A stretch of 64,000 nucleotides of DNA from positions 670 through 64,669 of the forward strand of contig JAYGCL010000074.1 of NCBI GenBank assembly GCA_046583365.1. The letters run 5' to 3'. The notes under the pieces are model-generated. The model was not told where the DNA came from and made no database searches. It worked only from the letters and a program-made list of their open reading frames with translations. Positions 3,405 to 28,083 of this stretch are shown one piece after another (the stretch's first letter is position 1; every line of letters starts with the position of its first letter). The stretch comes from Deltaproteobacteria bacterium (GTDB lineage Bacteria > Desulfobacterota > Binatia > UBA1149 > CAYXZP01). Position numbers and translations under genes: made by a program.

Positions 3405-4259
3405 TTAATCTTTGGTCTCCCACCAGGGGTAGAAGTCGGGCATATCCGACCACGGGCTCATCGAGAATCTGGCCGGACGTTTTTCCAGGAAGCTGCTGAC
3501 TCCTTCGTAGGCGTCGGCCTGCCCCCCGGCCCACTGCATGCAACGGGAGTCTATCATGTGGGCGTCGTAGGGGTTCGACAAACCGAGGCCATGCCAGAGC
3601 AGGGCTTTGGACAGGGCCACCGACACGGCCGAGGTGTTATCGGCAATTTCACGGGCCAGCAGCGTAGCCTTTGGCAATACCTGGTCCTGGGGCAGCACGT
3701 AGCTGAACAGGTGTGAGTCCTTTTCCTCTGCGGCTTTGAACACCCGTCCGCTGTAGCACAGCTCCGCGGCCTTGGAGATGCCGACTATGCGGGGCAGAAA
3801 CCAGGACGAACAGGCCTCGGGTACAATCCCCCGGCGAGAGAAGACAAACCCTATCTTGGCGTCTTCGGCCACGATACGGATGTCGGCGGCCAGGGTCATG
3901 GTGATACCCACACCCACGGCGGCGCCGTTTATAGCGGCGATAACCGGTTTACGGCAACCGAATATGGCAAGTGCCACGCGTCCACCGCCGTCGCGCAACG
4001 GTTCTGACTTGCCCTTTGCGCCACGTTTGGCGTAGTCGAAGGTCTCGCCTGCTGCCGACAGGTCGGCGCCGGCGCAAAACGCCCTGCCGGCTCCGGTCAG
4101 TATAACCGCGCGCACCCCGTCATCACGGTCCACGGCCTCGAAGATGCCGGTCAGTTCGAATACCATCCTTGCCGTAAAGGCATTGAGGCGGTCGGGGCGG
4201 TTGAGTGTAACGGTGGCAATACCGTTGTTGACGGAATAAGTGGTGTCTTTTAAATCCAT
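3405..4259 (-). CDS. Enoyl-CoA hydratase/isomerase (crotonase) family protein
   Basis: VTLNRPDRLNAF...GAGRAFCAGADL crotonase signature. Start trimmed to MDLKDTTYSV (codon 51 of the ORF). Confidence 0.85.
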   Translation of the reverse strand: MDLKDTTYSVNNGIATVTLNRPDRLNAFTARMVFELTGIFEAVDRDDGVRAVILTGAGRAFCAGADLSAAGETFDYAKRGAKGKSEPLRDGGGRVALAIFGCRKPVIAAINGAAVGVGITMTLAADIRIVAEDAKIGFVFSRRGIVPEACSSWFLPRIVGISKAAELCYSGRVFKAAEEKDSHLFSYVLPQDQVLPKATLLAREIADNTSAVSVALSKALLWHGLGLSNPYDAHMIDSRCMQWAGGQADAYEGVSSFLEKRPARFSMSPWSDMPDFYPWWETKD

Positions 4260-4332
4260 GACCCATGTCTTACACGGTGTCAGCACTGTAGGAAGCGTGG
4301 GCATGGTGGTAGACTCGGGAGTGGGACGGATT

Positions 4333-5070
4333 ATGGAGACAAGCAACCAACGTGTAGAAATTGCGGTCGGGGCCGACAGCATGGGCGGATACCTCGCACG
4401 CCCGGCCAATGACGACGGTTATCCCGGCGTCCTCCTGTTTATGGAAGTGTTCGGTATTAACCGGCATATCCGCGCGGTCGTCGACCGGGTGGCCGCCGAA
4501 GGTTACGTCGTGCTGGCCCCCGACGTGTTTCACCGCAGCGGTCCGGGGGTGGAACTCGAATACGATGCAGACGGTTTGTCCCGTGGCGTAGACATGATGG
4601 GACAGGTCGGGGCCGGCGAGTTGATCGCCGACATGAAAGCGGCGGTGGAGTTCCTCGAGACGCGTGAGGACGTCAGTGGCAAGGGTGTAGGGGTAATGGG
4701 CTTTTGTTTTGGCGGCCACGCGGCCTATCTGGCGGCTTGCGAATTGCCCGTAAAGGCCGCTGTAAGCTTTTACGGGGGTGGTGTGGCAACCGCGGCCCCG
4801 GGCAACGAAGGGCTACCCACGGTAGAGCGTAGTGGATCTATAACCGGCAGCATCCTCTGTTTGTTCGGGGAAAATGACACCTACATTCCGGCCGATAACG
4901 TCGCCACGGTACGCGAGGCCTTGGCCAACGCCGACGTAGACCACGAGGTGGTGGTCTACGATGGTGTCGGTCACGGTTTCTTCTGCGACGAACGTCCCGA
5001 TTACGACAAAGACTCGGCCGATGATGCGTGGGCGAGATTAACGACACTGTTTGCGGACAAGCTTGCCTGA
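4333..5070 (+). CDS. Dienelactone hydrolase family protein
   Basis: GVLLFMEVFGIN...MGFCFGG nucleophile elbow...HGF. Start at METSNQRVEI (ORF codon 32), divergent from the crotonase gene. Confidence 0.8.
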   Translation: METSNQRVEIAVGADSMGGYLARPANDDGYPGVLLFMEVFGINRHIRAVVDRVAAEGYVVLAPDVFHRSGPGVELEYDADGLSRGVDMMGQVGAGELIADMKAAVEFLETREDVSGKGVGVMGFCFGGHAAYLAACELPVKAAVSFYGGGVATAAPGNEGLPTVERSGSITGSILCLFGENDTYIPADNVATVREALANADVDHEVVVYDGVGHGFFCDERPDYDKDSADDAWARLTTLFADKLA

Positions 5071-5087
5071 CGGCCGGGCTGGGTGTT

Positions 5088-5429
5088 GTGGGGATAGCAA
5101 TCAAACCTGCTCTGGCGTCAGGCCTGCTGCTGGCCCTGGTGCTTGTGGCCGGGGCGGGGCGGGTCGAGGCGCAACTGTACCGCCCCGGGGCGCTTCCAGG
5201 CCAGGACCACCTCGAAGCCTTGCCCCACGCCCGTACCAGTACCTGTCCCCAGGGCCTTGAAACCCTGCCGTCCCCGGTTCCCGGCGGTGGTGAGTTAATC
5301 GACCTCAAAGGGCGCTTTCGCAGCATAGTGGTGGCACACAGACGCGCCGACGGTAGCCTGGCGCTTTCCTGCACGACCGCCGGATCCGATGATGACGGAC
5401 CGGCCGGGGCGGAGCGGACAGACCGATGA
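5088..5429 (+). CDS. Candidate small secreted protein (about 114 aa) translationally coupled to the downstream metalloprotease
   Basis: In-frame GTG at 5088 gives MGIAIKPALASGLLLALVLVAGAGRVEA|QL, a Sec-type signal peptide. The stop TGA overlaps the ATG of the 5426 gene (ATGA). GC3 is high as in real genes here; there is no homology support. Confidence 0.3.
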   Translation: MGIAIKPALASGLLLALVLVAGAGRVEAQLYRPGALPGQDHLEALPHARTSTCPQGLETLPSPVPGGGELIDLKGRFRSIVVAHRRADGSLALSCTTAGSDDDGPAGAERTDR

Positions 5430-6613
5430 GGGCACGTGGGGGCGGCAGGTATGCGTTGGTCGGGGCCTTTGTCCTTACGGCCCTGGCGACTCTCAGTTCC
5501 CCGGCCTGGGCGGCTACGATTACCATTCTGAATCTGGACTCCAGCGGCGAGGGTTTAAACGACCCCTCGACTCGCGACACAGTGGGGGGCAATACCGGCA
5601 CCACGCTGGGCGAGCAGCGCCTGCTGGTCATTGAAGAGGCGGCCAAACGTTGGGGAGCCAGGCTCTCCAGCGACGTGGAAATAACCATCGGCGTCGATTT
5701 CAGCCCGCTTGAGTGTAGTGCCCTGCAGGCCGTGCTCGGCAGTGCCGGTCCCGAGGTTACCGCATCCAACTTTTCCGGTGCCCCAAGGGCCGACACTATC
5801 TATTCCGTGGCCTTGGCCAACAGTCTGGCCGGCCTCGACCTCTGCCCTGAGTCCTCCTGTCCCACCTACTGGGACATAGGCGCTACTTTTAATTCGAGCC
5901 TCGACGACAACGAGGACTGTCTCGCTTGGACGAGTTGGTACTATGGCTTTGACGGCAATGATTCAGGGGGCGGCAACGTCCATTTTGACGTTGACCTTCT
6001 GAGCGTGGCCTTGCACGAATTCGGCCACGGTTTGGGTTTTCTCTCCTATGTGAACCTGGCAGACGGCAGCAAGCTGGCGGGGCTTGACGATGCCTACATG
6101 GTGCTTCTTGAGGACCACTCCAGCGGCCTAACCTTTCCCGACATGAGTGACAGCGAACGCTTGGTGGCCATGACCGACACCGGCGACCTGCACTGGACCG
6201 GTTTGGCCGTGCGCTCGGAGGCCGATTCTCTGAGTGCCGGTCTTGACCCGTCCGAGCATGTGGAGATGTACGCGCCGTATCCATCCGAGCCGGGGTCGTC
6301 GGTTTCTCATTTCAGTACCACCCTTGCACCCGACCAGTTGATGGAACCGGTGGCCACCGACCAGCACGGCCTCGACATGACGGCGGCTCTGCTCGGGGAT
6401 ACCGGCTGGACGACGGTCGAGTGCGGAGACTACGACGGCAGTGGCAGCATTCTGGCCGCCGATGCCCTGTCGGTCTTAAAAGGCGCGGTAGGTCTGATCG
6501 AGTGTGTAATCTCGGTCTGCGATGCCAGCGCTGACGGTTCTCTGACGGCCGCCGATGCCCTGCTCGTACTCAAGGCAGCGGTGGGTCTTACCGGCGACCT
6601 CGACTGCGGTTAG
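5426..6613 (+). CDS. Secreted zinc metalloprotease (HEFGH motif) with two C-terminal dockerin-type repeats
   Basis: Signal peptide MRARGGGRYALVGAFVLTALATLSSPAWA. HExxH zinc site VALHEFGHGLGF. Tandem repeats DYDGSGSILAADALSVLKGAVGL and CDASADGSLTAADALLVLKAAVGL match the dockerin Ca-binding loop plus helix pattern. Confidence 0.75.
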   Translation: MRARGGGRYALVGAFVLTALATLSSPAWAATITILNLDSSGEGLNDPSTRDTVGGNTGTTLGEQRLLVIEEAAKRWGARLSSDVEITIGVDFSPLECSALQAVLGSAGPEVTASNFSGAPRADTIYSVALANSLAGLDLCPESSCPTYWDIGATFNSSLDDNEDCLAWTSWYYGFDGNDSGGGNVHFDVDLLSVALHEFGHGLGFLSYVNLADGSKLAGLDDAYMVLLEDHSSGLTFPDMSDSERLVAMTDTGDLHWTGLAVRSEADSLSAGLDPSEHVEMYAPYPSEPGSSVSHFSTTLAPDQLMEPVATDQHGLDMTAALLGDTGWTTVECGDYDGSGSILAADALSVLKGAVGLIECVISVCDASADGSLTAADALLVLKAAVGLTGDLDCG

Positions 6614-7951
6614 TCAGGAACCTGGTTCTGGGCTTATGTCCTCGAGTTCCCGCCTGCGCGTCTCCGGCAGAGTCAGGATGGGGGCAACCCCGATCACACA
6701 AAAAAGCGACAGTATGACGGCGGCAGCACCCATGCCGCCCAGGCCGGCTGCTGCCAGCGAGTGCAACCACAGGCCACCGGCCCAGCCCAGGGTTTGCGTG
6801 AAGGCCAGCCAGCCTGCCGCCGTGCCCCGGTAGGAAGTGGGAAACAGTTCGGTGGCCAGGGCTTTGAGGACGACATCGCAGGCGGTGAAGCTGAAGACTA
6901 TCATTGCCCAGGCCAGGGGCAGGGTGGTGCTGCCCCCGCTGTAGAACAACCAGGCGGATATGGGGAAAGTCAGGAGGAAGAGGGTCCCCACCCTGCGCCG
7001 TCCCCAGCTGTCGCCGAGACGGCCGGCCACTACGTTGCCGACTATTCCAAAGGCACCTGCTGTTATTACCATCAACGAGTAATGGCCAGGACTCCAGCCG
7101 TGTACGTTGAGCAGGTAGTAGCCGCTGAACTGGAAGGCCGAAGCGGCGCCCAGGGCCGACATCAGAGCGGTGAGCGTCAGTCCCAGGGTGCGGGCCGGGT
7201 AGGCCGAGAACAGCCACAGCAGGGGACGGCCCCAGGAGGCAAAGGCCGAGGGTGCCGGGTCCGAACCGCTTTTGGCAAGCACCTCGTTGCGCCGTTGGTG
7301 GAAACGGGATGTTTCGGTAACCCCGCCCCGCAGCCGCCCGAGCAGAGCCAGGGGAAGAAGACCTATGAAATAGAGTGATCGCCAGCCGTAAGGCAGGTAT
7401 TCGATGGCTGCAAACAGGCCGGCACCGAGTCCGTGTCCGCACGCGGCCAGGGCGCCCATGATGCCGATGGCCCAGCCCCGGTGTTGGGCGGGAAACTCCT
7501 CGGTGATGATGGCCACACTGGTGGCCGCGGCCGCGATCATGAACATGCGGCACACCATCTGGATGAGGATAAACTGGGTCGCGTCCATGGCGAAAGCGCT
7601 GAGGCAAGTGCACACGCTGAACCCCACAATGCTGGCGAGAAAAATCCGACGCCGCCCCAGCCAGTCGGCCAGTGGCACGATGAGTATCGCGGGAAGGGCT
7701 CCGAGCCGGATCAGTCCGGTATAGAACCCCAGGCGTCCTTCTTCCATGGCCAGGTCTTCGGCAATGAACTTCAGTGCCGAGGTGAGCATGGAGACGTCGT
7801 AGCCTTCGAAGAACAGGGCCAGTGAGACGAAACCCAGCAGGGAAAGAAGGCGTGGCTCCAGTGCTGGTACTGCGCCCAGGAAAAAGGGAATCCACCAGGG
7901 GCGCTTGCGCCGAGGGCCGTTAGGGGATGCTGACGATGATGTATCCGTCAC
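6614..7951 (-). CDS. MFS transporter
   Basis: About 12 predicted TM helices and an MFS motif region (GRLGDSWGRRRVGTLF, LADWLGRRRIFLASIVGF). Convergent and abutting the metalloprotease stop. Confidence 0.8.
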   Translation of the reverse strand: MTDTSSSASPNGPRRKRPWWIPFFLGAVPALEPRLLSLLGFVSLALFFEGYDVSMLTSALKFIAEDLAMEEGRLGFYTGLIRLGALPAILIVPLADWLGRRRIFLASIVGFSVCTCLSAFAMDATQFILIQMVCRMFMIAAAATSVAIITEEFPAQHRGWAIGIMGALAACGHGLGAGLFAAIEYLPYGWRSLYFIGLLPLALLGRLRGGVTETSRFHQRRNEVLAKSGSDPAPSAFASWGRPLLWLFSAYPARTLGLTLTALMSALGAASAFQFSGYYLLNVHGWSPGHYSLMVITAGAFGIVGNVVAGRLGDSWGRRRVGTLFLLTFPISAWLFYSGGSTTLPLAWAMIVFSFTACDVVLKALATELFPTSYRGTAAGWLAFTQTLGWAGGLWLHSLAAAGLGGMGAAAVILSLFCVIGVAPILTLPETRRRELEDISPEPGS

Positions 7952-8306: not shown

Positions 8307-10124
8307 GTGATGACCAAGCCGGTATTTGTATATGACGGCGACTGTGACTTCTGCCGTGTATGGATAGAGCGCTGGCGTGAGTTGACCGGCGAGGCGGTCG
8401 ACTACCGTCCCTACCAGCAGGCCGCCGCCGATTTTCCCCACATCCCCGCCGAGGATTTTGTGCGGGCGGCCCACCTCGTCGAGCCCGACGGCAGTGTGAG
8501 CGAAGGGGCTGAGGCCGTGTTCAAAGCCCTGGCTCTGGTGGAGGGGAGGGGGTGGTTGCTCAAACTCTACGCGCTCCCCGGCTTTGCTCGTGCAGCCTCG
8601 GCCGTGTACCGGGCGGTGTCCTCCCACCGCCGCACGGCATCACTGCTGACCTCGCTTTTATGGGGTAAGCGGGTAAAGCGTCCACGCTACAGTCTGGTTC
8701 GTTGGGTCTTCCTCAAGGGCATGGGGGTGGTCTACGCCGTAGCTTTTCTGTCGTTGTGGGTGCAGGTGCATGGGCTTATCGGCAGCCGTGGCATCCTGCC
8801 CGTCGGCCCCTGGCTGGAGTCGGTAGGGATGCAGCAGGCCACGGTCTGGCGTTTTGTAAAGGTTCCCACCCTGCTGTGGTTGGGGTCGGGCGATACCGCC
8901 CTCCACTTGCTCTGTGCCGCCGGCCTGCTGTCGTCGTTGGCCCTGGCCGGCGGTCTGTTGCCCCGCCTTGGCGCGCTGGGAGCCTGGCTCTGCTACCTCT
9001 CCCTGTTCACGGCCGGGCGCGTATTCCTGAGCTTTCAGTGGGACATCCTTCTACTCGAGGCTGGATTTCTGGCCTTACTGTTTGCACCCGGCCGCTTGCG
9101 GCCCGGAGTATTCGGGGGCCGTCCCCCCTCTGCTGCGGTTGTATGGCTTCTACGCTGGCTGCTTTTCCGGCTGATGTTTCTCTCCGGGGCCGTCAAACTT
9201 CTAAGCGGCGACGCTGCGTGGTCGGACCTGACGGCGCTCGGCTTTCACTGGCAAACCCAGCCCCTGCCGGTGGCGACGAGTTGGTATCTCCACCAACTCC
9301 CCGGCTGGTCCCAGCAGGTCTTGTGCGCGGGGGTTTTTGTCGTGGAACTGATAGTGCCGTTTTTTGTCTTTGCCCCTCGCCGCCTGCGCCTGCTGGCCTG
9401 TGGAATCTTTTTGTTCTTTCAGGCCTTGATTGTGGCTACCGGCAACTACGCATTCTTCAACCTGCTTACCGTGGTCCTCTGCATCTGCCTGTTAGACGAC
9501 GATTGGTTGGGACATATGTTGCCAAAACGTATGGCGGGTGTGGCAAGCAAGCCTCCTGTTGCGGCACGGTGTTTTACCGCCGCCGCGGCTTTTGCGGCCC
9601 TGGTCTCACTGCTCGTGGTCACGAGTGGCGCCCAGTTCGCGGGCAGGCTGGGTACTCCGCTTCCACCCGCGCTGCGGGGTCTCGTGTCTGCCTTGGCCCC
9701 CTTGCGCCTGACCAACAGCTACGGGCTCTTTTCCGTCATGAGCAGAAAACGTCCCGAGATAATCGTCGAGGGCAGCATGGACGGAAAAACGTGGCAGGCC
9801 TACGAATTTAAGTGGAAGCCCGGTGACCTCCAGGGCCGGCCCCGTATTGTGGCGCCCCACCAGCCGAGGCTGGACTGGCAGATGTGGTTCGCGGCCCTCG
9901 GCAGTTACCACCGTAATCCCTGGTTTGTCAGCTTCGTGGGGCGTCTGCTGGAGGGGTCCCCGCAGGTTCTTGGTCTGCTCGCGAACGATCCTTTTGATGG
10001 CCGTCCTCCGCGCTATGCAAGGGCGGTGGTCTACGATTACAGCTTTTCCAGTCCCGGCGACGATGCCTGGTGGCGGCGGGTACCTTTGCGTCTCTACATG
10101 CCGGTCATGCAACGCCCCGACTGA
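8307..10124 (+). CDS. Fusion protein: N-terminal DCC-family thiol-disulfide oxidoreductase (DUF393) plus lipase maturation factor (LMF)-like membrane domain
   Basis: N-terminal VYDGDCDFCRVWI (DCC CxxC). The C-terminal half has LMF-like motifs (YGLFSVMSRKRPEIIVEGSMDGKTWQAYEFKWKPGD...DWQMWFAALGSY) and multiple TM helices. Confidence 0.75.
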   Translation: MMTKPVFVYDGDCDFCRVWIERWRELTGEAVDYRPYQQAAADFPHIPAEDFVRAAHLVEPDGSVSEGAEAVFKALALVEGRGWLLKLYALPGFARAASAVYRAVSSHRRTASLLTSLLWGKRVKRPRYSLVRWVFLKGMGVVYAVAFLSLWVQVHGLIGSRGILPVGPWLESVGMQQATVWRFVKVPTLLWLGSGDTALHLLCAAGLLSSLALAGGLLPRLGALGAWLCYLSLFTAGRVFLSFQWDILLLEAGFLALLFAPGRLRPGVFGGRPPSAAVVWLLRWLLFRLMFLSGAVKLLSGDAAWSDLTALGFHWQTQPLPVATSWYLHQLPGWSQQVLCAGVFVVELIVPFFVFAPRRLRLLACGIFLFFQALIVATGNYAFFNLLTVVLCICLLDDDWLGHMLPKRMAGVASKPPVAARCFTAAAAFAALVSLLVVTSGAQFAGRLGTPLPPALRGLVSALAPLRLTNSYGLFSVMSRKRPEIIVEGSMDGKTWQAYEFKWKPGDLQGRPRIVAPHQPRLDWQMWFAALGSYHRNPWFVSFVGRLLEGSPQVLGLLANDPFDGRPPRYARAVVYDYSFSSPGDDAWWRRVPLRLYMPVMQRPD

Positions 10125-24834: not shown

Positions 24835-25137
24835 GTCGGGGAGGGATTGGTGAACTACGTCTATGTAGCCCCCACACGGGTGGGTGGGGTTGAGTTGGAG
24901 GCAGCTGCGAGGCGGTTTTTACCGGCAAAGTTGCTTGGGCTGCAGTATAGCTTATTCCCCAGCCCCGGCTGGGATTTTGCCAGTTGGTACAGTTTCTTTC
25001 GGTCCGGCAGGGCTTTTTGAGGCTCGTTGGGGCTGTTTATCATTGACAACCGGGGCCGGGTTTTTCTAACTTGGACAGTGGTGGAAATGTTTTTCCAAGC
25101 GTTTCCCGGTGTTGACAGGATTCAGGGGAGGAACTCC

Positions 25138-28083
25138 ATGCGCATATCCAAATCGGTGATTTTTACGGTCGGCGCTCTTGCAGCGGTCGTCTTGCTGTCG
25201 GCTGCTCCCGCTTCGGCTGCGGTGACTTCGGCTGCGATGACCAAACTCGAGGCCAAGTGTGCCGGCAAGGTGGCCAAGGGGGCGGCCAAGGTCAGCAACA
25301 CGGTTATCAAGGAGACCATGAAGTGCCGGGACCGGGACATTTCCGGCAAGACCGTGGGGGTCTGCCCCAGTTCTGCCAGTAACGCGAAGGTCGCCAAGGC
25401 CAACGCCAAGCTTGCCAAAATCGCGCGCAAGACCTGTGGGAGTACCTGCAAGTTGACCACCGACCTCTTCTGCTTGGTCAACGCCCATTGCCCACCTCTG
25501 GGGGCGACCGACGAACGCTGTTCGGGAGATACCGGTCTCAAGGTTTTCGACATGAACCGTGTCGGTTTTCCAGGGGCCTTTTGTGACGGAGTCCTGGGCC
25601 ATGAAATCCTCAGTGCCGACGATATCGCCGAATGTGCAGGGTTGGTGGTGACCGGTGCCGCCAACAACCTGGTCACCGCCGTATACGGTGGTACGACCAA
25701 TGCGTCGTCTCTTTCCAAGGGGGCCCAGAAGTGTCTCAGCGGCATAGGCAAGTCGGCCAACAAACTGGTCCAGACTATTTTGAAGGGAACCGTGAAATGT
25801 CGTGGGGCCATTACTAAGGGCAAGATATTCGGCGACCCCGTGACCTGCGCCCTGGCAGACCCCAAGATTGCCGGCAAGATAGCCAAGATTCAGGCCAAGC
25901 TAAGTACAACGTTTTCGTCCAAGTGCAGCGATGAGACCGTGGCCGTCCTCGACCTTTGCGGCAACGGGGTTGGTGGTACCGCCGACGTGGTGGCGGCCGA
26001 AGCTTGTATCCTGGACGCGGCCAGAGAAATTGCCGACGGTCAGGAATTGGCGACGGCCCGAAACTACTCCTCCAAGTCAATCATTGAAGGGGCCTTCCCT
26101 CCGGCTCCCTCTTGCGGTGACGGCATTGTAAACCAACTTGCCGGCTTTTACCTGCGCCTAGGGGAGGAGTGCGACGGTGACGATGATAGCGCGTGTCCGG
26201 GGCTCTGCTTTCCGCCCGGAGACTTGTTCGAGTGCACCTGTGCAAACGTTGCGCGTATTCTCGTAATCAACGACGGCCCGGGCAGTGATAACGACACCGG
26301 TTGGACAGGGCTTGCCCACAACCAACCTATACCCGACCAGGGGGGTTACATCCAGGCTGTAAGCGGCTGCGACTGTGACGACTTTGATGGCTTGAACTGT
26401 GTAGGCAACAGTACCGACAGTGTATGCGACCTTGACGGCTATCAGACGCCGGTTTGTTCCGGGGATCCCCACAGCCAGACGAGCTGTGATCAGCACGGGG
26501 ACAATAACGGCAGAGACACTGACAGCGATTGTTACGTCTGTGACCAGTACAACACCAATGTCGGCGACTCGTGCACGAATTCCAGCGGCTGTCAGGCCCA
26601 GTGCCACGACACGGACTTAAACCCCACCGGCCAGCTCTGTGACCGCCAGAGCGATTGCGATGCCGGCAGTTTCTGCCGTGGACGCTGCGATGACTCCCGG
26701 CGCTGCCTGAAATCCTATAACGGTGGCCCCTTGCCGGTTTCAACCGCCAGTTCAGCGGCGTGTGCGACGCAGGTATTTCGCACCAACACTACCGGAACCG
26801 TCAACATCCAGACCGGTGCAAGTGAAGAGTGGTACGGACTTTTTGCCGGAATCTTTCTTGGCGTCGGTTCCACCTATCCCTGCCCGATCTGCGGCGGTTT
26901 CTGCGATGGCGGTAGCCGCCCCGGTGACACTTGCGAGGGGACCTGCGAGAATAGTGGTGCGTTTTGCCGCTTCGACAGCGATTGTAGTGACGGTGAGGCG
27001 TGCGATGGAGACACTCCGCTCTGTCCCGATGGTGGCACCTGCGTTCTCGAGAACATCTGCCGTTGGGGCCCCAACGAGGGCGAGACCTGTAAGATCGACT
27101 ACCGCCACGCCCAATTCGGGACCATGTCCAACCATTGTCCGCCCGATAAAGGCAAAAATATCTCCGGCGATGGCCTGAGGGCGGAGAATGTGCCCCTGAC
27201 TACTACCGACCGCACCTTTGTGGCTGAACTGCCGTGTTCGTCGCCCGGTTACGAGTTGTTCAGTTGCCACTGTCCAGACGACGGTGGGGCGCTGACAAAG
27301 CCCAACTCCTGCTCCCCGGCTTGCACGGCCGGAGCCGAGGCCGGCCAGGGCTGTGCCGATTCCAACTCAACCACCGGTGGCGGGGACTTTACGGCTTGTG
27401 CCGGTGGTGCCAACGTGGGCAAGGCCTGCGATGAAGACGGCGACTGCCCCGGCAGCTCCTGTTCGGTCAATCCATTGCACTGTAGTGGTGATGCTGCCTA
27501 CGAACATATGCCGTGTTCGGGAGACGGTGACTGTGGCAGTGGCAGTTGTGTGGACGCCTGTCCGCAAGGCCGCTGCGTGCCCCTTTGTGTGGCCAAGGAT
27601 GGCGCTCCATACGAAGGCGTCTGTGCTGCCGGCCCCCCGGTCTTTCACTGCGAGTCGGGCAAGTACACTGGGCGCAACTGCCCGCCCTCGGCTGCGTATT
27701 CCGACTGTCAGGCCACCTGTAGCGGTTCGGGGGTATTGTGTACTGGTGACGAGCAGTGTCCGGCCGGCCAGACCTGTGCGGGCCCCTGCGATACCCACAG
27801 GGAATGTGGTGCCGGCCTCGACGGTATTCTCGGCAACTGGGATGACCTCTTTGGTGCCGGCGCCTGTATTGCCGACGAACGCAGTTGCTTCTCCGCTCAG
27901 ATTCCCGGAACGGGCGGGACTACTTTGAATGGTAAGGGTGATGCCACCAACGTGTTCCAGAACAACCTGACCTGTTACACCTCGACCAACAATGCGCCCA
28001 CCAACAATGTTACGGGCCTGGGTGGGCCGGCCAGGAATCACAAGCACGCGACGCGTATCCCCAATTTCACGTCTTTACCCTAG
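25138..28083 (+). CDS. Large secreted cysteine-rich repeat protein (about 981 aa) with Myxococcus-type cysteine-rich repeats (TIGR02232/DUF4215-like)
   Basis: Signal peptide MRISKSVIFTVGALAAVVLLSAAPASA with GGGGAGG RBS. N-terminal Lys-rich repeats (AKCAGKVAKGAAKVSNTVIKETMKC; AQKCLSGIGKSANKLVQTILKGTVKC). Then CGDGIVNQLAGFYLRLGEECDGDDDSACPGLC repeats and about 100 Cys in C-x-C spacings. A paralog lies at 1..892. Confidence 0.8.
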   Translation: MRISKSVIFTVGALAAVVLLSAAPASAAVTSAAMTKLEAKCAGKVAKGAAKVSNTVIKETMKCRDRDISGKTVGVCPSSASNAKVAKANAKLAKIARKTCGSTCKLTTDLFCLVNAHCPPLGATDERCSGDTGLKVFDMNRVGFPGAFCDGVLGHEILSADDIAECAGLVVTGAANNLVTAVYGGTTNASSLSKGAQKCLSGIGKSANKLVQTILKGTVKCRGAITKGKIFGDPVTCALADPKIAGKIAKIQAKLSTTFSSKCSDETVAVLDLCGNGVGGTADVVAAEACILDAAREIADGQELATARNYSSKSIIEGAFPPAPSCGDGIVNQLAGFYLRLGEECDGDDDSACPGLCFPPGDLFECTCANVARILVINDGPGSDNDTGWTGLAHNQPIPDQGGYIQAVSGCDCDDFDGLNCVGNSTDSVCDLDGYQTPVCSGDPHSQTSCDQHGDNNGRDTDSDCYVCDQYNTNVGDSCTNSSGCQAQCHDTDLNPTGQLCDRQSDCDAGSFCRGRCDDSRRCLKSYNGGPLPVSTASSAACATQVFRTNTTGTVNIQTGASEEWYGLFAGIFLGVGSTYPCPICGGFCDGGSRPGDTCEGTCENSGAFCRFDSDCSDGEACDGDTPLCPDGGTCVLENICRWGPNEGETCKIDYRHAQFGTMSNHCPPDKGKNISGDGLRAENVPLTTTDRTFVAELPCSSPGYELFSCHCPDDGGALTKPNSCSPACTAGAEAGQGCADSNSTTGGGDFTACAGGANVGKACDEDGDCPGSSCSVNPLHCSGDAAYEHMPCSGDGDCGSGSCVDACPQGRCVPLCVAKDGAPYEGVCAAGPPVFHCESGKYTGRNCPPSAAYSDCQATCSGSGVLCTGDEQCPAGQTCAGPCDTHRECGAGLDGILGNWDDLFGAGACIADERSCFSAQIPGTGGTTLNGKGDATNVFQNNLTCYTSTNNAPTNNVTGLGGPARNHKHATRIPNFTSLP

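What the first reader, a model, noticed from the sequence alone, without database searches (positions are those of the whole stretch)
5088..6613. Candidate small secreted protein translationally coupled (ATGA) to a secreted HExxH metalloprotease that carries dockerin repeats
The 355-nt spacer between the DLH gene and the protease contains an in-frame GTG at 5088. It would encode MGIAIKPALASGLLLALVLVAGAGRVEA|Q..., a plausible Sec signal, and an 88-aa mature peptide. Its stop overlaps the protease ATG (ATGA), the coupling signature used by bona fide operons in this window. A small co-secreted partner of a protease suggests an inhibitor, propeptide or chaperone. The protease itself is unusual: HEFGHGLGF has no obvious third metzincin ligand, and the tail has two dockerin-like Ca-binding repeats (DYDGSGSILAADALSVLK / DASADGSLTAADALLVLK), which implies cohesin-mediated anchoring outside a classical cellulosome organism.
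Basis: partly seen in the sequence, partly recalled or inferred. Interest (0 to 1): 0.55.

Follow-up and report, generated by a model that had tools for sequence, protein, structure and literature searches.

The report
Separately encoded prodomain of a secreted metalloprotease
The small upstream reading frame is a real gene that always accompanies this widespread family of secreted bacterial zinc proteases and matches the N-terminal prodomain that some relatives carry fused, so it most likely keeps the protease inactive, or helps it fold, until release.

Summary
GTG 5088 opens a 113-codon frame whose TGA overlaps the protease ATG at 5426 (ATGA). It is a real gene:
- dN/dS is 0.35 against a 92%-identical sister contig, and above 1 in the other frames.
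- That contig carries an in-frame 30-nt deletion.
- The protein makes a near-threshold NCBIfam NF047450 hit.

The small gene and the protease form an obligate pair.
- Among 80 genomes holding protease homologues, 56 pairs lie on the same strand, with gaps of about −4 to +10 nt.
- 39 of 39 loci found through the small domain carry the protease directly downstream.
- In a large Acidobacteria/Xanthomonadales clade, the same domain is fused as the N-terminal domain of the protease (hhalign probability 98%).

The last conserved column of the domain is Cys in 98 and His in 33 of 134 sequences. Usually it is the only Cys in the exported part. I therefore read the small protein as a prodomain encoded in trans, probably with a Cys/His-switch that blocks the catalytic zinc. 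That blocking step is inferred, not shown.

The protease does have a candidate third ligand. H295 and M306 align with His334 and Met345 of leishmanolysin. The tail is a true dockerin fold. Cohesin anchoring is untested.

Verdict: a new variant of a known kind.

The parts
5088..5429 (+). Small gene (113 codons plus TGA). It encodes an exported protein with an NF047450-type domain, the equivalent in trans of the N-terminal prodomain of fused relatives.
   Evidence: ORF and ATGA overlap. Purifying selection and an in-frame indel versus L001. NCBIfam NF047450 at 25.5 bits, E 1.8e-5. 134 relatives by phmmer. Synteny.
5088..5171 (+). Predicted Sec signal peptide (residues 1-28; Lys6, hydrophobic core ALASGLLLALVLVAGAG, V-E-A before the cut).
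   Evidence: Read from the sequence, by rule of thumb only because no signal-peptide predictor was available. 116 of 133 relatives also start with a hydrophobic stretch.
5238..5375 (+). Conserved core of the small protein (residues 51-96): STCPQGLETLPSPVPGGGELIDLKGRFRSIVVAHRRADGSLALSC. It contains GGG 66-68, D72, G75-R76-F77 and C95.
   Evidence: Family HMM consensus and column counts. hhalign to residues 47-89 of the fused family, probability 98.2%, E 2.8e-14.
5370..5372 (+). Codon of Cys95, the column that is Cys (98) or His (33) in 134 family members. It is the candidate fourth ligand of the catalytic zinc.
   Evidence: Column 46 of the family alignment. The matching residue is an invariant Cys in 71 of 71 fused proteins. 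It is the only Cys in the exported part in 75 of 133 proteins. Contact with zinc is inferred, not shown.
5426..6613 (+). Secreted zinc metalloprotease (395 aa plus TAG): signal peptide 1-29, catalytic domain about 30-330, dockerin module about 331-395.
   Evidence: More than 2,500 homologues. NCBIfam NF038122 at 49.7 bits, below the cut-off of 80. AF2 mean pLDDT 83.6, pTM 0.82.
6014..6040 (+). HEFGHGLGF (H197, E198, H201, G204): the HExxHxxG zinc-binding and catalytic motif.
   Evidence: Invariant in 25 of 25 and 71 of 71 aligned homologues. Aligns with HEMAHALGF of leishmanolysin 1lml.
6293..6349 (+). GSSVSH295...LM306EP block: candidate third zinc ligand (H295, nt 6308-6310) and Met-turn (M306, nt 6341-6343).
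   Evidence: Invariant G290 S291 S292 H295 M306 E307 P308. The profile alignment places H295 on chain residue 235 of 1lml and M306 eleven residues later. From my own knowledge of 1LML numbering, these are His334 and Met345. AF2 confidence is low in this stretch.
6416..6610 (+). C-terminal dockerin-like module: two EF-hand-like repeats plus four conserved Cys.
   Evidence: Module profile against PDB: type I dockerins 1ohz_B at E 8.4e-5 and 1daq_A at 2.2e-4. Foldseek: dockerins with probability 0.9-1.0, TM (target) 0.69-0.81, rmsd 1.8-3 Å. Pfam Dockerin_1 gives 14.6 bits for this protein, below the cut-off of 22.9, and hits 12 of 25 homologues.
4333..5070 (+). Upstream dienelactone hydrolase gene (context). 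Only 17 nt separate its stop from GTG 5088, so co-transcription is likely in this lineage.
   Evidence: Pfam DLH at 1.4e-53. Same gene order in L001. No promoter-like or terminator-like site lies between the genes. DLH is not part of the conserved pair in other genomes.

Best explanation
The frame 5088-5429 is a real gene. Its product is exported on its own Sec signal. It is the separately encoded counterpart of the N-terminal prodomain that some relatives of the neighbouring protease carry in the same polypeptide.

The two genes are translated as a coupled pair (ATGA), with the small gene first. Both chains cross the inner membrane separately and associate in the periplasm or outside the cell.

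The most likely job of the small protein is to hold the protease latent. It may also help it fold. Its one strongly conserved metal-binding residue, Cys95 here and Cys or His across the family, would occupy the fourth coordination position of the catalytic zinc held by H197, H201 and H295. This is what the cysteine of metzincin pro-segments does. Activity would appear when the small protein dissociates, is oxidised or is degraded.

What is shown: the gene is real, the pairing is obligate, the small protein is homologous to the prodomain of the fused clade, and one column holds only Cys or His in 131 of 134 sequences.

What is inferred: physical binding, inhibition, and zinc contact.

The protease is a divergent metzincin-type enzyme with a leishmanolysin-like distal third His. 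A dockerin module at its C-terminus probably attaches it to some partner or surface.
For: 1. The gene is real.
- dN/dS is 0.35 in frame and above 1 out of frame. There is a 30-nt in-frame deletion in L001.
- NF047450 scores 25.5 bits, E 1.8e-5.
- 134 relatives are found at E <= 1e-3 among 1.84 billion representatives. Of 131 relatives scanned, 123 match NF047450.

2. The pair is obligate.
- In 80 genome loci chosen through the protease, there are 56 same-strand small-plus-protease pairs. The stop-to-start distance is mostly −4 (ATGA/GTGA) to about +10 nt. The loci span Myxococcota, Binatia, Acidobacteriota, Alpha- and Gammaproteobacteria, Desulfobacterota, Krumholzibacteriota, Eisenbacteria and Calditrichaceae.
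- In 43 metagenome loci chosen through the small domain, 39 of the 39 with room downstream carry the protease directly downstream.

3. The domain occurs fused.
- In L057, L059, L061 and L069 the domain lies between the signal peptide and the catalytic domain in one ORF.
- This fused clade has at least 120 clusters.
- hhalign of the small domain against the fused family gives probability 98.2%, E 2.8e-14, with the terminal Cys on the invariant C87.
- AF2 folds this N-terminal domain confidently, with pLDDT 85-96.

4. The ligand-type column.
- It holds Cys in 98, His in 33 and a gap in 3 of 134 sequences.
- 75 of 133 proteins have exactly one Cys in the exported part, and 21 have none.

5. Precedent.
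- Cysteine-switch pro-segments are described for leishmanolysin (PMC11957388) and for mirolysin and the MMPs (PMC6949598).
- The catalytic motifs align in register with leishmanolysin.
Against: - In the AF2 model of a fused relative, the conserved Cys sits at the end of a beta-strand of a folded domain. Classical Cys-switches lie in an extended peptide.
- The window's own small protein has a second Cys (C53), as do P0002, P0126 and P0150. C95 could therefore be in a disulfide here.
- About 5 of 63 non-redundant pairs lack Cys or His at that column.
- The link of the catalytic domain to leishmanolysin is weak. The sequence E-value is 0.006. No Pfam M8 hit was found at E <= 1 for the window protein. 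Foldseek finds only serralysin, at E 0.14.
- The His295/Met306 region has low AF2 confidence.
- There are no expression data.
Confidence: 0.55

Rival explanations
1. The small protein is a dedicated folding helper or a permanent non-catalytic subunit. It is needed for the protease to fold or stay stable after Sec export, and it stays bound without blocking activity. Its Cys or His contributes to a structural metal site or to an interface rather than to the catalytic zinc.
For: - The same synteny and fusion data fit this reading.
- In the fused clade the domain is a compact, confidently folded module rather than a short peptide.
- Nothing shows that it is ever removed.
- Upstream position and translational coupling suit a partner needed in equal amounts.
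Against: - A column restricted to Cys or His with no partner ligands conserved within the small domain fits a fourth ligand of an existing site better than a new structural site.
- N-terminal domains of secreted metzincins that carry a lone Cys are, in the characterised cases, latency devices (PMC6949598; PMC11957388).
- Helper and inhibitor roles are not exclusive. Many prodomains do both (my own knowledge).
Confidence: 0.25
2. The small protein is a membrane or cell-surface tether. Its N-terminal hydrophobic segment stays uncleaved, or is lipidated, and the C-terminal domain captures the protease so that it is displayed on the cell.
For: - Relatives have long Pro/Ala-rich linkers between the N-terminal hydrophobic segment and the C-terminal domain.
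- 9 of 133 have a lipobox-like motif.
Against: - The window protein has a good V-E-A cleavage site and almost no linker.
- Fused relatives have the domain directly after a cleavable signal peptide, so tethering cannot be its conserved role.
- The protease already carries its own attachment module, the dockerin.
Confidence: 0.08
3. The small protein is a substrate or precursor that the protease cuts to release a peptide, such as a signal or toxin.
For: A small exported protein sits next to a protease. The N-terminal half is variable and the C-terminal half conserved.
Against: - The conserved part is a folded domain that also exists fused to the enzyme.
- No conserved short peptide or cleavage motif flanked by variable sequence was seen.
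- A precursor would not be expected in 1:1 coupling across at least nine named bacterial lineages.
Confidence: 0.05
4. The ORF is a chance open frame in a GC-rich spacer, and the region is a long 5' leader of the protease.
For: - There is no strong Shine-Dalgarno sequence before GTG 5088.
- There is no Pfam family.
- The word-based homology search found only two relatives.
Against: - Frame-specific purifying selection and an in-frame indel.
- An NCBIfam hit.
- 134 relatives by exhaustive HMMER search.
- Conserved position upstream of the protease across phyla, and natural fusions.
Confidence: 0.02

Closest known systems
Cysteine-switch zymogens of metzincins (MMP PRCGxPD pro-domain; mirolysin Cys23; leishmanolysin/GP63 pro-segment)
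   Same: - A secreted HExxHxxG zinc protease.
- An N-terminal pro-region with one conserved, unpaired Cys. In the known cases this Cys binds the catalytic zinc (PMC6949598; PMC11957388).
- Here the homologous domain is N-terminal in the fused clade and carries an invariant Cys.
   Different: - In the window and in most genomes, the pro-region is a separate gene with its own signal peptide. Latency, if it exists, would be non-covalent from the start and would need no cleavage to end.
- The ligand column alternates between Cys and His.
- There is no sequence similarity to the PRCGxPD, CG or HRCIHD motifs.
- The domain is a folded alpha/beta module of about 50-70 residues.
Free-standing propeptide-like protease inhibitors (e.g. 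Spi next to speB in Streptococcus; subtilisin-propeptide-like inhibitors, MEROPS I9). Cited from my own knowledge.
   Same: A small protein homologous to the protease's own prodomain, encoded as an independent gene beside or near the protease gene.
   Different: - Those cases concern cysteine or serine proteases, and there the protease still keeps its own prodomain.
- Here the split proteases have no prodomain of their own. A signal peptide is followed directly by the catalytic domain, so the small gene replaces the prodomain rather than duplicating it.
Periplasmic inhibitors of serralysins (AprI/Inh, MEROPS I38) encoded beside aprA/prtA. Cited from my own knowledge.
   Same: A small Sec-exported protein of about 100 aa, encoded next to a secreted metzincin. 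It is thought to protect the cell from the enzyme.
   Different: - No sequence similarity. The family profile finds no inhibitor in the PDB.
- AprI blocks the site with its N-terminus, not with a Cys or His.
- Serralysins leave by type I secretion and never meet the inhibitor on the normal route. Here both partners are Sec substrates, and the pairing is obligate.
Leishmanolysin (MEROPS M8, PDB 1LML)
   Same: - The HExxHxxGF motif.
- A long insertion before the third His (90 residues here; 62 in GP63, PMC11957388).
- A GSxxSH block followed by a Met eleven residues later, aligned in register.
- A Cys-bearing pro-region.
   Different: - The window protein shows no Pfam Peptidase_M8 match at E <= 1, and 1 of 25 relatives matches at E 0.0087.
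- Foldseek does not retrieve 1LML.
- The protein is bacterial, far smaller, and has a dockerin tail instead of a GPI anchor.
Non-cellulosomal dockerin-bearing proteins (Peer et al. 2009 FEMS Microbiol Lett 291:1, reference seen in PMC6487960)
   Same: A type I dockerin-like module with two EF-hand-like repeats at the C-terminus of a non-cellulolytic secreted enzyme.
   Different: - This module carries four conserved Cys (C4, C31, C36 and C65 of alignment A6), which classical dockerins lack.
- No cohesin partner is known.

Membership tests
NCBIfam NF047450 (post-PEP-CTERM-1 domain) | HMM score at or above the curated cut-off (28 bits) | tested here: not met
   The score is 25.5 bits, E 1.8e-5, covering residues 43-98 and profile positions 23-79 of 82. 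This is narrowly below the cut-off.
NCBIfam NF047450 (post-PEP-CTERM-1 domain) | Homology to proteins that do match the model | tested here: met
   134 relatives were found by phmmer. Of 131 scanned, 123 match NF047450 at E <= 0.01 (best 2.8e-15; how many reach the 28-bit cut-off was not reported).
NCBIfam NF047450 (post-PEP-CTERM-1 domain) | Association with PEP-CTERM proteins (implied only by the family's name; I could not read its description) | tested here: not met
   A pattern search found no PEP-CTERM-like tail in 94 complete protease ORFs, and none in ORFs upstream of the small genes.
NCBIfam NF038122 (metallo_LGF metalloprotease) | HMM score at or above the curated cut-off (80 bits) | tested here: not met
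   The score is 49.7 bits, E 4.9e-13. All 25 aligned relatives hit the model, best E 1.4e-19. This is a related but distinct subfamily.
Metzincin clan | Extended zinc motif HExxHxxG | tested here: met
   H197-E-F-G-H201-G-L-G204, invariant in alignments A2 and A3.
Metzincin clan | Third ligand His or Asp three residues after the Gly (HExxHxxGxxH/D) | tested here: not met
   The sequence continues F-L-S-Y. The candidate third ligand is distal, at H295.
Metzincin clan | Met-turn below the zinc site | tested here: inconclusive
   Invariant M306 aligns with the Met eleven residues after the third His of 1lml. AF2 pLDDT is only 52-63 there, and the coordinates could not be inspected.
Metzincin clan | Metzincin fold (five-stranded sheet, backing helix, active-site helix, C-terminal helix) | tested here: inconclusive
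Leishmanolysin, MEROPS M8 / Pfam PF01457 | Pfam Peptidase_M8 match above the gathering score | tested here: not met
   No match for the window protein at E <= 1. One of 25 relatives matches at E 0.0087. PF01457 is not among the 25 most-matched families listed for the 71 fused proteins; 12 further families were not shown.
Leishmanolysin, MEROPS M8 / Pfam PF01457 | Long insertion between the motif Gly and the third His, with the Met-turn eleven residues after that His | tested here: met
   G204 to H295 is 90 residues, and M306 is H295 plus 11. The profile alignment to 1lml is in register, whole-sequence E 0.006. The 62-residue insertion in GP63 is from PMC11957388.
Cysteine-switch pro-domains | A conserved unpaired Cys, or another metal ligand, in the pro-region | tested here: met
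   The column holds Cys in 98 and His in 33 of 134 sequences. It is the only Cys in 75 of 133 and is invariant in 71 fused proteins. Caveat: the window protein also has C53.
Cysteine-switch pro-domains | That residue coordinates the catalytic zinc in the latent form | not testable with these tools
Cysteine-switch pro-domains | The pro-region is part of the same polypeptide, N-terminal to the catalytic domain | tested here: not met
   It is a separate gene in the window and in 56 plus 39 pairs. It is part of the same polypeptide only in the fused clade.
Dockerin type I (Pfam PF00404) | Two tandem repeats of about 22 residues, each with an EF-hand-like Ca loop followed by a helix | tested here: met
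   D334-x-D-x-S-G-x-I-x-x-x-D345 and D366-x-S-x-D-G-x-L-x-x-x-D377. AF2 places helices at 344-354 and 375-385.
Dockerin type I (Pfam PF00404) | Pfam match above the gathering score (22.9 bits) | tested here: not met
   The window protein scores 14.6 bits, E 0.038. 12 of 25 relatives match at E <= 0.01, best 1.2e-6.
Dockerin type I (Pfam PF00404) | Dockerin fold, or homology to solved dockerins | tested here: met
   Module profile against PDB: 1ohz_B at 8.4e-5, 2ccl_B at 1.2e-4, and 1daq_A and 2mte_A at 2.2e-4. Foldseek: 4uyq_B and 4uyp_B with probability 1.00; 2ccl_B with TM (target) 0.79 and rmsd 2.1 Å.
Dockerin type I (Pfam PF00404) | A cognate cohesin in the same genome | not testable with these tools
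   Only 64 kb of the genome is available. None of the 20 window proteins scanned against Pfam matched a cohesin family.
Serralysin inhibitors (AprI/Inh, I38) | Sequence similarity to solved inhibitors | tested here: not met
   The family profile A4 finds nothing relevant in the PDB. The only hit is 6s5w_A 'surface protein' at E 0.035.

The most novel reading that the evidence does not exclude
This would be a natural 'split zymogen'. In a very large, uncharacterised family of bacterial metzincin-like proteases, the latency prodomain has been separated into its own gene. That gene is translationally coupled to the protease gene, and its product is secreted independently. The enzyme would therefore be inhibited non-covalently from birth by a Cys or His ligand supplied in trans. 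It would be switched on by loss, oxidation or degradation of the partner rather than by cleavage of a pro-peptide. The fused clade would record the ancestral or derived covalent state.
Probability: 0.4. Interest if true: 0.65.

Novelty: new variant of a known kind. Interest (0 to 1): 0.5.

Why it matters
The protease family is large. Each of two searches found more than 2,500 protein clusters. It is spread over many soil, sediment and marine phyla, and it has no Pfam family and no literature. The sources name its small partner only 'hypothetical protein'.

Showing that the two genes form one unit gives both proteins a testable function. It also corrects the gene start used in public data.

If the Cys/His-switch is confirmed, this would show how a zymogen mechanism can work with the inhibitory domain on a separate polypeptide. 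That bears on how secreted proteases are kept harmless in the periplasm. It could also offer a ready-made, genetically separable inhibitor and protease pair for biotechnology.

The Cys-bearing dockerin tail adds one more non-cellulosomal dockerin whose partner is unknown.

Tried and rejected
- The word-based homology search with the small protein found only two close relatives. The exhaustive HMMER search was needed.
- The start at GTG 5028 used by gene callers was rejected on substitution pattern.
- The first attempt to scan metagenomes with the full small-protein alignment failed because no stretch was conserved enough. A trimmed core alignment worked.
- PEP-CTERM link: none was found in the proteases or in upstream ORFs, so the NCBIfam name remains unexplained. 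No paper mentions NF047450 or NF038122.
- A PDB sequence search with the fused-family profile found nothing.
- Foldseek of the fused model found nothing better than E 0.8.
- I built a concatenated small-linker-protease paired alignment for a pseudo-complex prediction but did not submit it.
- Mutual information between the Cys/His state and protease columns gave only lineage signal.
- A possible link between the protease and the 1018-codon Cys-rich ORF at 25027-28083 was checked. A homologue lies next to the pair in one MAG (L004) but in none of the other loci, so the link was dropped.
- The AprI/Inh-type inhibitor idea was rejected for lack of any similarity.
Full report
**1. What is in the sequence**

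The dienelactone hydrolase gene (Pfam DLH, 1.4e-53) ends at 5070. Seventeen bases later, GTG 5088 opens a frame of 113 codons. Its TGA (5427-5429) overlaps the ATG (5426) of a 395-codon gene.

The small product starts MGIAIKPALASGLLLALVLVAGAGRVEA|Q. By rule of thumb this is a Sec signal peptide, because it has a basic residue, a hydrophobic core of 17 residues, and V-E-A before the cut. The mature part is 85 residues, not 88.

The large product has its own signal peptide (residues 1-29). Four-base overlaps between neighbouring genes occur elsewhere in the window.

**2. The small frame is a gene**

A 952-bp ENA contig (L001) carries the same three genes at 92% DNA identity, including the ATGA junction.

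| Region compared with L001 | dN/dS |
|---|---|
| Small frame | 0.35 |
| Small frame, mature part | 0.27 |
| The two other frames | 1.1-2.2 |
| Protease N-terminus | 0.22 |
| DLH | 0.03 |

Synonymous versus non-synonymous changes give Fisher p = 0.002. L001 differs by a 30-nt in-frame deletion in the acidic tail.

The stretch 5028-5087 is included by the public gene calls (P0001, 133 aa). It evolves in the DLH frame (0.05) and not in the small frame (0.76). GTG 5088 is therefore the likely start. GC by codon position is gene-like.

Pfam has no family for the protein. NCBIfam NF047450, 'post-PEP-CTERM-1 domain', matches at 25.5 bits against a cut-off of 28 (E 1.8e-5).

**3. It belongs to a widespread family that always sits in front of this protease**

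An exhaustive phmmer search of 1.84 billion representatives found 134 relatives at E <= 1e-3. Most are 110-180 aa with the conserved domain at the C-terminal end. Of 131 scanned, 123 match NF047450. The sources name the ten homologues I looked up at most 'hypothetical protein'.

The core consensus is STSSEGLVEVPSPVPGGGVMVDLQGRFRSALVATRDADGKLSTEC. It has an invariant Phe and nearly invariant GGG, D, L and GR.

The protease has more than 2,500 homologous clusters. They carry variable C-terminal modules: dockerin, Cys-rich repeats, PKD, FG-GAP and RTX.

In 80 genome loci retrieved through the protease:
- 56 small-plus-protease pairs lie on the same strand.
- The stop-to-start distance is mostly −4 (ATGA/GTGA), −1 (TAATG) or a few bases.
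- The loci come from Myxococcota, Binatia, Acidobacteriota, Alpha- and Gammaproteobacteria, Desulfobacterota, Krumholzibacteriota, Eisenbacteria and Calditrichaceae.
- With an iterated profile, 59 of 82 sequences (the 81 loci fetched by then plus the window) show the domain.

The reciprocal test used 43 metagenome loci retrieved through the small-domain pattern. All 39 with at least 200 nt of room downstream have the protease directly downstream. None lacks it.

The data answer it in the opposite sense.

**4. In one clade the domain is fused to the protease**

In L057, L059, L061 and L069, a single ORF encodes, in order:
- a signal peptide;
- the small domain;
- a linker of about 90 residues;
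- the catalytic domain.

This fused architecture has at least 120 clusters, mostly Acidobacteria (Pyrinomonadaceae/Blastocatellia) and Xanthomonadales.

Profile-profile comparison of the free-standing domain with the fused family gives probability 98.2%, E 2.8e-14. It covers residues 47-89 of P0280 and puts the terminal Cys on a Cys that is invariant in 71 of 71 fused proteins.

AlphaFold2 folds this N-terminal domain with pLDDT 85-96. It has a helix, four strands and a helix, and the Cys lies at the end of the last strand. The linker is poorly defined.

Split proteases have no prodomain of their own. Their signal peptide is followed directly by the ATITIVN start of the catalytic domain. The small gene is therefore the prodomain encoded in trans.

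**5. The clue to mechanism**

The last conserved column of the domain holds Cys in 98 sequences, His in 33 and a gap in 3 of 134. No other residue occurs there.
- In 75 of 133 proteins this is the only Cys in the exported part.
- In 21 of 133 there is no Cys in the exported part.

An exported domain with a lone Cys that alternates only with His is best explained by metal binding. The obvious metal is the catalytic zinc of the partner.

This is how pro-segments keep MMPs, mirolysin and leishmanolysin latent (PMC6949598; PMC11957388).

Caveats:
- The Cys sits in a folded domain rather than in an extended peptide.
- The window's subgroup has a second Cys (C53) that could pair with C95.
- About 5 of 63 pairs lack Cys or His at that column.

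**6. The protease**

HEFGHGLG fits the metzincin motif HExxHxxG. The family also has invariant G290 S291 S292 H295 and M306 E307 P308.

A profile search of the PDB gives leishmanolysin 1lml as the best hit (E 0.006). HEMAHALGF aligns with the motif, and GSAGSH...ELMAP aligns with GSSVSH...QLMEP. By the numbering of 1LML, which I take from my own knowledge, these are His264/His268, the third ligand His334, and Met345 of the Met-turn. The spacing of His to Met, eleven residues, is the same.

GP63 is known for a long insertion before its third His (62 residues; PMC11957388). Here the insertion is 90 residues.

The link is nevertheless weak.
- The window protein has no Pfam M8 match at E <= 1, and one of its 25 relatives matches at E 0.0087.
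- NF038122 scores below its cut-off, 49.7 against 80 bits.
- Foldseek finds only serralysins, at E 0.14.
- AF2 is unsure around residues 291-310.

I therefore describe the enzyme as a divergent metzincin-type protease with a leishmanolysin-like ligand arrangement. I do not file it as an M8 member.

**7. The tail**

The 65-residue C-terminal module is shared by most of the roughly 390-aa homologues. As a profile it hits type I dockerins in the PDB: 1ohz_B at 8.4e-5 and CelS at 2.2e-4.

In the AF2 model it superposes on dockerins with probability 0.9-1.0, TM (target) 0.7-0.8 and rmsd 2-3 Å. It differs from classical dockerins by four conserved Cys.

Whether a cohesin exists in this genome cannot be told from 64 kb. 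None of the 20 window proteins scanned against Pfam matched a cohesin family.

**8. Verdict**

The 'missing third ligand' claim is not supported. Cohesin anchoring is open.

The gene family is already catalogued without a function. The obligate pairing, the split and fused architectures, and the Cys/His-only column appear unreported.

I rate it a new variant of a known kind, of moderate interest. The central mechanistic step is still to be shown.

Noticed in passing
window 25027-28083 (+): A 1018-codon ORF, probably starting at Met37 with a signal peptide, has 82 Cys in 982 residues and no Pfam family at E <= 1e-3. It is 46% identical over 974 residues to an ORF in MAG JAJCZM010000005.1 (L004:5881-8925, − strand). 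There it lies about 700 nt downstream of that genome's small-plus-protease pair, in convergent orientation. It was not found in the other 122 loci.
   Followed up: partly
window 8307-10124 (+): A bacterial protein that combines a DCC1-like thiol-disulfide oxidoreductase domain with Lipase maturation factor domains (LMF1 at 2.3e-57, LMF1_C at 1.3e-49). It lies two genes downstream of the protease.
   Followed up: no
window 6611-6616: The protease stop TAG (6611-6613) directly abuts the stop of the convergent MFS transporter gene (TCA, the reverse complement of TGA, 6614-6616). There are no intergenic bases, and no terminator-like hairpin was found in 3900-7000.
   Followed up: no
NCBIfam NF047450; loci L002-L124: The family name 'post-PEP-CTERM-1' does not fit what is seen here. 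By pattern search, no PEP-CTERM-like tail occurs in 94 complete protease ORFs or in ORFs upstream of the small genes.
   Followed up: partly
L002, L044, L045; L007:2-8866: The pair occurs as tandem duplicates (small-protease-small-protease) in three genomes. In an Acidobacteriota MAG, one open frame of more than 8.8 kb holds four protease catalytic domains in a row with no small domain detected.
   Followed up: no
window 5088-5429 versus relatives: 98 of 133 small proteins have a second motif (Y/H)xDPxTGxxxxPP upstream of the core domain. The window protein lacks it (QLYRPGALPGQDH instead) and belongs to a short subgroup with an extra Cys (TSTC53).
   Followed up: partly
protease residues 278-280 (nt 6257-6265): The split family has a nearly invariant GHVEMY block (H278). 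The fused family has GRVQLF at the same place. This may be a difference linked to whether the prodomain is covalently attached.
   Followed up: no
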